Origin: Escherichia coli O157:H7
Lineage (GTDB): Bacteria; Pseudomonadota; Gammaproteobacteria; Enterobacterales; Enterobacteriaceae
NCBI RefSeq assembly: GCF_013167455.1
Contig: NZ_CP038328.1
Length of the DNA: 64,000 nt
Direction: 5' to 3' (one strand)
The notes beneath the pieces were generated by a model. It was not told the DNA's origin. It searched no databases and was given only the letters and a program-made list of their open reading frames with translations. Both the position numbers and the translations under genes were made by a program. This document shows positions 26,417-26,524 of the stretch, one piece after another; the stretch's first letter is position 1, and each line of letters begins with the position of its first letter.

Positions 26417-26524
26417 TCAGCCCCAAATCATTGCTGCCCAACGTAGCAACAACATAGCGCCACAGATTGCCAGTAGCACCACCACCATCTTCCAGTGTTT
26501 TTTATCAAAGCGTTTAGTCGGCAT
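26417..26524 (-). CDS. yniD: small membrane protein YniD (35 aa)
   Basis: MPTKRFDKKHWKMVVVLLAICGAMLLLRWAAMIWG, the C-terminal 35 codons of the 72-aa track ORF; single predicted transmembrane helix. Confidence 0.6.
   Translation of the reverse strand: MPTKRFDKKHWKMVVVLLAICGAMLLLRWAAMIWG

What the first reader, a model, noticed from the sequence alone, without database searches (positions are those of the whole stretch)
26417..26524. 35-codon single-helix micro-protein yniD downstream of arpB
A tiny ORF ending in a strongly hydrophobic helix (MVVVLLAICGAMLLLRWAAMIWG) lies on the same strand 174 bp downstream of arpB. Small membrane proteins of this kind are often regulators of larger membrane complexes and are frequently missed by ORF callers.
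Basis: partly seen in the sequence, partly recalled or inferred. Interest (0 to 1): 0.25.

Follow-up and report, generated by a model that had tools for sequence, protein, structure and literature searches.

The report
Known small membrane protein gene yniD
The 35-codon ORF is real and under strong purifying selection, but it is the already annotated E. coli gene yniD, a single-helix inner-membrane micro-protein of still unknown function, so the finding is correct and ordinary.

Summary
The ORF exists as described. It lies at window 26417-26524 on the minus strand, has 35 codons plus TGA, and encodes MPTKRFDKKHWKMVVVLLAICGAMLLLRWAAMIWG. It starts 174 bp after the stop of the upstream gene on the same strand.

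The window is E. coli O157:H7. RefSeq annotates this ORF as yniD, "small membrane protein YniD". It matches NCBIfam equivalog NF041491 (85.7 bits, cut-off 40). The protein is identical to K-12 b4535, and the gene is present in 5416 of 5426 complete E. coli genomes.

Across 42 distinct orthologous sequences from nine genera, dN/dS is 0.056. The start ATG, a Shine-Dalgarno sequence 7-8 nt upstream and an extended -10 promoter (TGnTAnnnT, 28-37 nt upstream) are conserved. The rest of the flanks is not.

One correction: the upstream gene here is an intact 632-aa espL1, not the K-12 arpB pseudogene.

The protein is one helix (AlphaFold2 residues 3-34). It has a basic N-terminus, so the predicted topology is N-in. 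The C-terminal RWAAMIWG is almost invariant, and the conserved residues line one helix face.

The most likely mode of action is packing against a larger inner-membrane protein. That is an inference, and no partner is known.

Verdict: already known, low interest.

The parts
26417..26524 (-). yniD coding sequence: 35 codons plus TGA, encoding a single-pass small membrane protein.
   Evidence: Translation. RefSeq annotation. NF041491, 85.7 bits. dN/dS 0.056. AlphaFold2 helix 3-34, pLDDT 83.
26532..26535 (-). Shine-Dalgarno core AGGA, 7 nt before the ATG.
   Evidence: Read from the sequence. A purine-rich core (AGGA, AAGGA, GAGG or GGAA) lies mostly 7-8 nt before the ATG in 42 of 43 distinct upstream sequences, although the surrounding bases diverge.
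26561..26569 (-). Predicted extended -10 sigma-70 promoter element TGtTACACT. The inferred transcription start is about 26552-26555, giving a leader of about 28-31 nt.
   Evidence: TGnTAnnnT is found 28-37 nt before the ATG in 41 of 43 distinct upstream sequences from nine genera. The chance rate is about 0.1 per 100 nt, and the two exceptions carry near-variants. The transcription start itself is inferred, not measured.
26373..26397 (.). G+C-rich hairpin in the 52-bp gap between the convergent genes ydiY and yniD. It is a likely bidirectional terminator.
   Evidence: Terminator-like site on the + strand: 11 pairs, 7 of them G-C. On the yniD strand the hairpin folds at -13.1 kcal/mol, z = -2.7, and is followed by AGAUAAUUUUA, a weak U tract. 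It is not conserved outside Escherichia.

Best explanation
This is yniD, an already annotated gene that is conserved and syntenic across the Escherichia-Citrobacter-Enterobacter group. It encodes a 35-residue single-pass inner-membrane protein.

Shown here:
- The ORF is under purifying selection as strong as that on its 252-aa neighbour ydiY.
- The annotated ATG, an SD 7-8 nt upstream and an extended -10 element about 30-36 nt upstream are conserved across nine genera, while the other flanking sequence is not. The gene therefore looks like an independent monocistronic unit.
- It ends at a hairpin shared with the convergent ydiY.
- The product is predicted to be one continuous helix.

Inferred:
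- The basic N-terminus (K4, R5, K8, K9, K12) stays in the cytoplasm, by the positive-inside rule.
- Residues about 13-35 span the membrane. The invariant R28, W29, W34 and the C-terminal G35 would then sit at the periplasmic interface.
- At 35 residues the chain is no longer than the ribosomal tunnel shields, so insertion must be post-translational, through SRP to YidC or SecYEG, as shown for YohP and YkgR.
- The invariant residues L17, C21, L25 and R28 follow an i, i+4, i+8, i+11 stripe, and the C-terminal block RWAAMIWG is nearly invariant. The variable positions 15, 18, 19, 22 and 26 lie on the opposite face.
- That pattern points to helix-helix packing against a specific larger inner-membrane protein, as an accessory subunit or modulator in the manner of AcrZ, MgtS, KdpF or CydX. 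The partner is unknown.

Confidence by step: identity and protein-coding status about 0.97; N-in/C-out topology about 0.75; specific partner binding as the mode of action about 0.5.
For: Identity:
- The region is 100% identical to E. coli O157:H7 NZ_AP018488.1, where the ORF is annotated yniD.
- NF041491 equivalog, 85.7 bits against a cut-off of 40, full length.
- The protein is identical to K-12 b4535, and the 391-bp region is 98% identical.
- The CDS is present in 5416 of 5426 complete E. coli genomes and is at least 99% identical in 5405 of them.

Coding:
- dN/dS is 0.056; entropy by codon position is 0.36/0.13/1.03.
- On the same 40 loci, omega is 0.057 for yniD and 0.040 for ydiY.
- For residues 28-35, pN is 0.010 at pS 0.66.

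Start site and expression signals:
- Conserved ATG and SD.
- Extended -10 element in 41 of 43 upstream sequences.
- The in-frame upstream extension varies from 1 to 50 codons.
- The leader is not unusually structured, z = -0.3.

Protein detection: a 2025 mass-spectrometry paper states that Treitz et al. detected YniD in E. coli grown in M9 medium (PMC12529367).

Protein anatomy:
- AlphaFold2 gives helix 3-34 with pLDDT 83.
- K9, L17, C21, L25, R28, W29, A30 and A31 are invariant.
- Conservation periodicity peaks at 100-105 degrees.

General mechanisms, from the review PMC12648545: post-translational SRP-dependent insertion of small membrane proteins, and partner binding by MgtS, KdpF, AcrZ and CydX.
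Against: - No experiment on YniD function, localisation or topology could be read here. The primary papers are not held.
- No partner is suggested by gene context. yniD is monocistronic.
- Its neighbours are thrS, ydiY, and yncL in some genera. They do not include a conserved inner-membrane complex.
- A divergent homologue sits in an unrelated context.
- No chain in the Protein Data Bank matches the family profile, so YniD has not appeared as an unexpected subunit in a solved complex.
- The helical-face signal is modest (moment 0.17), because the whole C-terminal third is invariant.
- The hairpin's U tract on the yniD strand is weak.
Confidence: 0.9

Rival explanations
1. YniD acts on the bilayer itself rather than on one partner protein. 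It would self-associate or bind lipid and so alter membrane potential, fluidity or lipid composition as part of a stress or stationary-phase response. This is what was reported for the 27-aa protein YohP.
For: - YohP lowers membrane potential and fluidity and raises cardiolipin content (abstract of PMC12719787).
- YniD has no conserved partner gene nearby and no match in solved complexes.
- The invariant R28 and W29 at the predicted interface could bind anionic lipid head groups (inference).
- In many genera yniD lies directly downstream of a homologue of yncL, which NCBIfam names 'stress response membrane protein YncL'.
Against: - Near-invariance of eight consecutive C-terminal residues (pN 0.010), together with a one-sided conserved stripe, is more constraint than generic membrane insertion or lipid contact usually needs.
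- No data on YniD and membrane properties were found.
Confidence: 0.2
2. yniD is the toxin of a type I toxin-antitoxin pair: a small hydrophobic peptide that damages the membrane and is kept silent by an antisense RNA.
For: The size and single hydrophobic helix resemble type I toxins, which the review PMC12648545 treats as one class of small membrane proteins (sections 12-14).
Against: - No Rfam family matches on either strand of 25300-29300.
- Synonymous sites are saturated (pS 0.66), so no overlapping conserved antisense RNA constrains the ORF.
- The leader is short and unstructured (z = -0.3) and the SD is accessible and conserved. Type I toxin mRNAs usually have long, structured leaders.
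- There is one copy per genome (median 1), in a fixed syntenic position across genera.
- The native protein was reportedly detected in ordinary minimal-medium cultures.
- PADLOC gives no hit.
Confidence: 0.03
3. The real product is longer than 35 residues. It would start at the in-frame ATG at 26539 (40 aa, MQDTG-MPTK...) or at the GTG at 26635 (72 aa).
For: The frame is open upstream to 26635. Automatic gene callers have produced N-terminally extended versions in public data: P0001 (50 aa), P0002 (55 aa) and P0004 (63 aa).
Against: - The in-frame upstream extension ranges from 1 to 50 codons among orthologues. In 8 sequences a stop lies one codon before the ATG.
- The upstream ATG is absent from relatives that lack the espL1 insertion.
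- The SD is correctly spaced for the 26524 ATG and is conserved.
- The predicted promoter at 26561-26569 lies downstream of the GTG at 26635.
- The NCBIfam model covers residues 2-35 only.
Confidence: 0.03
4. The ORF is a chance open frame in non-coding DNA between ydiY and espL1.
For: Short ORFs are very common: 74 ORFs of at least 20 aa in 5 kb and 294 ATG-started ORFs of 25-60 aa in the window.
Against: dN/dS is 0.056 with clear third-position periodicity across nine genera. All 44 full-length orthologues keep an intact 35-37-codon frame, and the start signals are conserved.
Confidence: 0.005

Closest known systems
YniD of E. coli K-12 (b4535, YP_588455.2; NCBIfam NF041491; Pfam label PF28032 'YniD-like')
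   Same: The 35-aa sequence is identical. The synteny is the same: thrS, arpB/espL1, yniD, ydiY, pfkB. The flanking DNA is 98% identical. The ORF scores 85.7 bits against the equivalog model, whose cut-off is 40.
   Different: Nothing differs in the gene itself. In O157:H7 the upstream neighbour is an intact espL1, where K-12 has the arpB pseudogene.
Small single-helix proteins that bind larger inner-membrane proteins: AcrZ-AcrB, MgtS-MgtA, KdpF-KdpABC, CydX/CydH-CydAB
   Same: The size class (29-49 aa) and the single transmembrane helix are the same. Conservation is concentrated on one helix face plus a terminal motif, as expected for a helix-packing interface. The general mode of action is described in PMC12648545.
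   Different: No partner is known for YniD. The gene is not in an operon with a membrane complex, unlike cydX and kdpF. No solved complex contains it. There is no sequence similarity to these proteins.
YohP (27 aa) and YncL (about 30 aa), stress-associated small membrane proteins of E. coli
   Same: They are short, single-helix, independently transcribed enterobacterial genes. A yncL homologue lies 59-101 nt upstream of yniD on the same strand in about 20 loci of the Enterobacter, Lelliottia and Leclercia group. At this length, post-translational insertion is expected.
   Different: There is no sequence similarity. No stress induction or membrane effect of YniD was documented in anything read here. 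In E. coli, yncL is not next to yniD (no match in the window).
Type I toxins (Hok, Ldr, Ibs, TisB, ShoB and similar)
   Same: Small hydrophobic single-helix peptides.
   Different: YniD has no antisense RNA, no constraint on synonymous sites and no long structured leader. It is single-copy and syntenic.

Membership tests
YniD (NCBIfam NF041491, equivalog) | Whole-protein score above the curated cut-off of 40 bits, covering the full model. | tested here: met
   85.7 bits, E = 1e-24. Residues 2-35 match model positions 1-34 of 34.
YniD (NCBIfam NF041491, equivalog) | Orthology with K-12 b4535: same sequence and same chromosomal position. | tested here: met
   The protein is identical. The gene order thrS, arpB/espL1, yniD, ydiY, pfkB is the same in both records.
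Pfam PF28032 YniD-like | Match to the Pfam model above its gathering score. | not testable with these tools
   The local Pfam copy returned no family for the 35-aa protein. The label PF28032 appears only as a precomputed hit on the homologues P0019 and P0020. These align with YniD at 60-62% identity.
Single-pass small inner-membrane proteins | One hydrophobic helix long enough to span the bilayer. | tested here: met
   The best 19-residue Kyte-Doolittle window averages 2.32. AlphaFold2 predicts helix 3-34 with mean pLDDT 83.
Single-pass small inner-membrane proteins | Experimental membrane localisation and orientation. | not testable with these tools
   N-in/C-out is inferred from five K/R residues before the helix and one (R28) after its core. 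The papers that tested small-protein localisation are not held.
Small-protein subunits or regulators of membrane complexes (AcrZ, MgtS, KdpF, CydX type) | Physical association with a defined larger membrane protein. | not testable with these tools
   No interaction data were found. The full-text search for 'yniD' gave 7 papers, 4 of them on E. coli and none on function.
Small-protein subunits or regulators of membrane complexes (AcrZ, MgtS, KdpF, CydX type) | Co-operonic or conserved linkage with the partner's genes (applies to the CydX and KdpF subtype only). | tested here: not met
   yniD has its own conserved promoter and sits between thrS and ydiY. In some genera yncL and a 77-aa secreted-protein gene are also there. 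No membrane complex is linked to it, and a divergent homologue lies in a different context.
Small-protein subunits or regulators of membrane complexes (AcrZ, MgtS, KdpF, CydX type) | Seen as a chain in a solved complex. | tested here: not met
   The profile search of all PDB chains gave only chance-level hits, to VAMP2 at E = 0.9-1.5.
Type I toxin-antitoxin toxins | A cognate antisense or overlapping regulatory RNA, with a structured leader that limits translation. | tested here: not met
   No Rfam match. Synonymous sites are saturated, pS 0.66. Leader folding gives z = -0.3. Apart from the promoter and SD, the flanks are not conserved.

The most novel reading that the evidence does not exclude
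YniD may be the dedicated accessory helix of an inner-membrane protein or complex that has not yet been identified. The invariant C-terminal LRWAAMIWG and the L17/C21/L25/R28 stripe would form the contact surface. It may also work together with YncL, since the two genes are arranged in tandem in the Enterobacter, Lelliottia and Leclercia group. Nothing found here excludes this reading, and nothing demonstrates it.
Probability: 0.3. Interest if true: 0.3.

Novelty: already known. Interest (0 to 1): 0.07.

Why it matters
For the genome scan, this finding adds little. The gene is named, has its own curated NCBIfam model, and is annotated in essentially every complete E. coli genome.

What remains open is the function of YniD, as for most of the roughly 150 small proteins of E. 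coli. Four observations made here could guide an experiment:
- The C-terminal RWAAMIWG is nearly invariant (pN 0.010 against saturated synonymous change).
- Conservation in the helix is one-sided.
- An extended -10 promoter is conserved, and it survived the espL1 insertion.
- The yncL-yniD tandem is present in the Enterobacter, Lelliottia and Leclercia group and may be the older arrangement.

None of these changes the classification.

Tried and rejected
- I used the neighbour ydiY as a syntenic anchor instead, and searched the representatives library with the 35-aa protein itself.

**Papers not held**
- The primary papers I recall as describing E. coli small proteins, including YniD, are not held. 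These are Hemm 2008 (PMC2614699), Hemm 2010 (PMC2798279), Fontaine 2011 (PMC3173172) and Hemm 2020 (PMC7212919), plus PMC4166647 and PMC11890958.
- My recollection that YniD was confirmed by chromosomal epitope tagging is therefore memory, not a checked citation.
- No supplementary files were held for three papers.
- The only E. coli paper returned by the 'b4535' search did not contain the term in its main text.

**Database searches with no useful hit**
- The local Pfam copy gave no hit.
- PADLOC gave no hit.
- The PDB profile search gave only chance hits.
- Rfam gave nothing in 25300-29300.

**Evidence that could not be assigned to yniD**
- The genomic SELEX peaks are listed as lying between thrS and yniD (PMC5493296). 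That table treats the whole interval, which includes the arpB pseudogene, as a spacer. The peaks therefore cannot be assigned to the yniD promoter.

**Hits rejected as chance**
- Weak tblastn hits in Klebsiella (E = 0.08-8) lie antisense to the 77-aa secreted-protein gene. I rejected them as chance.

**Analysis that was uninformative**
- My cross-species hairpin search in the 3' flank mostly picked structures inside neighbouring genes. The 3' flank is not conserved between genera.

**Readings rejected**
- A leader-peptide or upstream-ORF role: there is no downstream gene on the same strand, because yniD runs into a hairpin and the convergent ydiY.
- An antisense coding frame: the wobble-aligned antisense frame has an apparent dN/dS of 0.19, which is the expected artefact. 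In the window the + strand has only 21-23-aa ORFs over yniD.

Full report
**1. The observation**

On the minus strand of the window, an ATG at 26524 opens a frame of 35 codons that ends with TGA at 26419-26417. It translates to MPTKRFDKKHWKMVVVLLAICGAMLLLRWAAMIWG.

The upstream ORF on the same strand is 632 aa long (26699-28597). It stops 174 bp before this ATG.

The mechanical ORF list shows a longer open frame of 72 aa from a GTG at 26635, and there is an in-frame ATG at 26539. These are dealt with in section 3.

A short hydrophobic ORF is only weak evidence by itself. Three of the 294 ATG-started ORFs of 25-60 aa in the window are as hydrophobic as this one, against 0.25 expected in shuffles. 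One of the other two lies out of frame inside pheT.

**2. Identity**

A 451-bp query around the ORF is 100% identical to E. coli O157:H7 strain PV15-279. It is found in 5416 of 5426 complete E. coli genomes.

In that record the ORF is annotated as yniD, "small membrane protein YniD" (WP_001142445.1). It lies between ydiY (DUF481, convergent) and espL1 (type III secretion effector), with thrS beyond espL1 and pfkB beyond ydiY.

The protein matches NCBIfam equivalog NF041491 at 85.7 bits, against a curated cut-off of 40.

K-12 MG1655 has the same 35-aa protein (b4535, "uncharacterized protein YniD") in the same position. There the upstream gene is the arpB pseudogene. In this window the gene is intact, and Pfam finds a ShET2 N-terminal domain plus ankyrin repeats in it.

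The yniD CDS alone is at least 99% identical in 5405 of 5416 E. coli genomes.

**3. Is it a real gene, and where does it start?**

The 35-aa query was too short for two of the search tools. I therefore fetched 80 loci from different species, using the neighbour ydiY as an anchor, and searched them for yniD.

Selection:
- Forty-four full-length orthologues were recovered, 42 of them distinct at the nucleotide level.
- Pooled Nei-Gojobori estimates give pS 0.66 and pN 0.085, so dN/dS is 0.056 in the annotated frame.
- Four other frames give 1.4-8.3. The wobble-aligned antisense frame gives 0.19, which is the expected artefact.
- Column entropy at codon positions 1, 2 and 3 is 0.36, 0.13 and 1.03.
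- On the same 40 loci, ydiY has omega 0.040 and yniD 0.057. The micro-ORF is as constrained as an ordinary gene.

Start site:
- The ATG and the MP(T/S)xRF start are conserved.
- The in-frame upstream extension varies from 1 to 50 codons.
- A purine-rich SD core lies mostly 7-8 nt before the ATG in 42 of 43 distinct upstream sequences. In the window it is AGGA at 26535-26532.
- The annotated start is therefore the supported one. The longer products that some gene callers emit (P0001, P0002, P0004) are artefacts.

A published statement that YniD was detected by mass spectrometry in M9-grown E. coli (Treitz et al., cited in PMC12529367) gives independent protein-level support. I also recall that YniD was among the small proteins confirmed by epitope tagging in the 2008 Hemm et al. 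study. That paper is not held, so this is memory only.

**4. Expression signals**

Aligning the 120 nt upstream of the ATG shows one conserved block amid otherwise divergent sequence: TTTG(T/G)TA(C/G/A)ACT.

As TGnTAnnnT, it is present 28-37 nt before the ATG in 41 of 43 distinct upstream sequences. The two exceptions carry near-variants, and the chance rate is about 0.1 per 100 nt. This is the pattern of an extended -10 sigma-70 promoter.

In the window the element is TGtTACACT at 26569-26561. It predicts a transcription start near 26552-26555 and a leader of about 30 nt. The leader is not unusually structured (z = -0.3). The transcription start is inferred, not measured.

Downstream, a hairpin at 26373-26397 lies in the 52-bp gap to the convergent ydiY. 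It scores as a terminator on the + strand. On the yniD strand it folds at -13.1 kcal/mol (z = -2.7), with a weak U tract.

Rfam finds nothing on either strand of 25300-29300.

**5. Distribution and local history**

yniD is present next to ydiY in nine genera:
- Escherichia
- Citrobacter
- Enterobacter
- Lelliottia
- Leclercia
- Yokenella
- Trabulsiella
- Huaxiibacter
- Pseudenterobacter

It was not found between ydiY and thrS in the Klebsiella, Raoultella, Kosakonia, Phytobacter and Salmonella (arizonae, diarizonae) loci examined.

In most species yniD is divergent from thrS, with 300-500 bp between them. Comparison with Escherichia genomes that lack espL1 gives these results:
- Homology to the window ends at 26581-26595 on the yniD side.
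- Homology resumes at 29069, 51 bp before thrS.
- About 2.5 kb carrying espL1 therefore replaced about 190 bp of the spacer.

This espL1 segment has only 35-40% G+C. The junction lies 12-26 bp upstream of the extended -10 element, so the yniD promoter was left intact.

In about 20 loci of the Enterobacter, Lelliottia and Leclercia group, a 30-aa ORF lies 59-101 nt upstream of yniD on the same strand. It is a YncL homologue (NF000537, 60 bits against a cut-off of 35).

More divergent YniD-like proteins carry the precomputed Pfam label PF28032. One example is P0020 (34 aa, 62% identity). They occur in another genome context, between a DUF6388 gene and an AraC-type regulator gene within a flagellar region. 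The family is therefore not tied to thrS.

**6. The protein and how it most likely works**

Structure and conservation:
- AlphaFold2, run with the family alignment, predicts one helix covering residues 3-34 (mean pLDDT 83).
- K9, L17, C21, L25, R28, W29, A30 and A31 are invariant. W34 and G35 are nearly so.
- By segment, pN/pS is 0.17 for residues 1-12, 0.17 for 13-27 and 0.015 for 28-35.
- Within the helix, the most variable positions (15, 18, 19, 22, 26) and the invariant ones (17, 21, 25, 28) fall on opposite faces.
- The periodicity of conservation peaks at 100-105 degrees, though the moment is modest at 0.17.

Inferred topology:
- Five K/R residues precede the hydrophobic core and only R28 follows it. 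The positive-inside rule therefore predicts N-in/C-out.
- R28, W29 and W34 would then sit at the periplasmic interface, with no periplasmic tail.

Inferred insertion:
- The ribosomal tunnel shields about 35 residues, so a 35-residue chain must be released before its helix emerges.
- Insertion would then be post-translational, by SRP to YidC or SecYEG, as shown for YohP and YkgR (review PMC12648545).

Inferred mode of action:
- The degree and pattern of conservation exceed what a generic membrane anchor needs.
- The best-supported reading is helix-helix packing against a specific larger inner-membrane protein. MgtS, KdpF, AcrZ and CydX work this way.
- I rate this at about 0.5, because no partner is indicated by context or by solved structures.

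**7. Rival explanations**

- **YohP-like action on the membrane itself** (PMC12719787) is the main alternative, at about 0.2.
- **Type I toxin** is unlikely, at about 0.03. There is no antisense RNA family match and synonymous sites are saturated. The leader is short and open, and there is a single syntenic copy. The native protein was also reportedly detected under ordinary growth.
- **A longer product** is unlikely, at about 0.03.
- **A chance ORF** is excluded.

**8. Verdict**

The feature is already known and routinely annotated. Its function remains uncharacterised in everything I could read: 'yniD' occurs in seven full-text papers, four of them on E. coli and none on function.

Interest for the scan is low. 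The small additions made here are the conserved promoter, the invariant C-terminal motif, the one-sided helix conservation, the yncL-yniD tandem in other genera and the espL1 junction. They are leads for experiments, not discoveries.

Noticed in passing
window 26582-29068 (espL1 CDS at 26699-28597, minus strand): A segment of about 2.5 kb with low G+C (35-40%) carries an intact 632-aa espL1 gene (ShET2 N-terminal domain plus ankyrin repeats). It is inserted between thrS and yniD. Escherichia genomes that lack it have only about 300 bp between thrS and yniD. The junction lies 12-26 bp upstream of the yniD extended -10 element. K-12 carries the same segment with the gene decayed to the arpB pseudogene.
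   Followed up: partly
L015 5141-5230 (minus strand); likewise L022, L034, L035, L036, L045 and others, 22 loci in all: In Enterobacter, Lelliottia, Leclercia, Huaxiibacter and Pseudenterobacter a 30-aa YncL homologue (MNVSSRTVV.LN..SA..L..LA..FHWF; NF000537, 60 bits) lies 59-101 nt upstream of yniD on the same strand. This forms a tandem of two small membrane protein genes. Two Silvania loci have the yncL homologue without yniD. The window has no yncL match.
   Followed up: partly
L022 4526-4759 (+ strand); also L006, L011, L015, L035: A conserved gene of about 77 aa (an 88-aa ORF in L011) with a signal-peptide-like N-terminus lies between ydiY and yniD in several genera. Klebsiella and Raoultella appear to have it too. 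Only its N-terminal half resembles the DUF1471 proteins YbiJ, BhsA and YhcN, and the scores are well below their cut-offs. E. coli lacks it at this site.
   Followed up: partly
L008 4428-4532 (Citrobacter youngae ATCC 29220); L024 4533 (Citrobacter sp. NCU1): There is occasional decay or sequencing error in yniD. L008 has a 1-nt deletion after codon 10, plus C21Y and M32T. L024 has ATT in place of the start ATG. Four species carry 1-2 extra residues after G35, and public gene sets contain stop-loss or frameshifted versions (P0003, P0006, P0009, P0013).
   Followed up: partly
window 42060-42185 (minus strand): A 41-aa, very hydrophobic ATG ORF ([41 protein letters not shown]) lies in the A+T-rich gap between aroH and hemP and overlaps the hemP start. 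It is not annotated in the O157 record. It may simply be the translation of A+T-rich regulatory DNA. Its conservation was not examined.
   Followed up: no
K-12 arpB/yniD intergenic region (corresponds to window 26525-26698): A long-term stationary-phase evolution study lists an IS2 insertion in the arpB/yniD intergenic region among the mutations that fixed in evolved lineages (PMC7858067). Its position relative to the yniD promoter is not given.
   Followed up: no
L083 4001-4105 (record CP015581.1) and L084 (JPKR02000003.1): A divergent 34-aa YniD-like gene (MAKVIGKKYGKMILVLVLICLGLLLLRWAAMIWG) keeps the C-terminal LRWAAMIWG. It sits in a different neighbourhood, between a DUF6388 gene and an AraC-type regulator gene inside a flagellar gene region.
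   Followed up: partly
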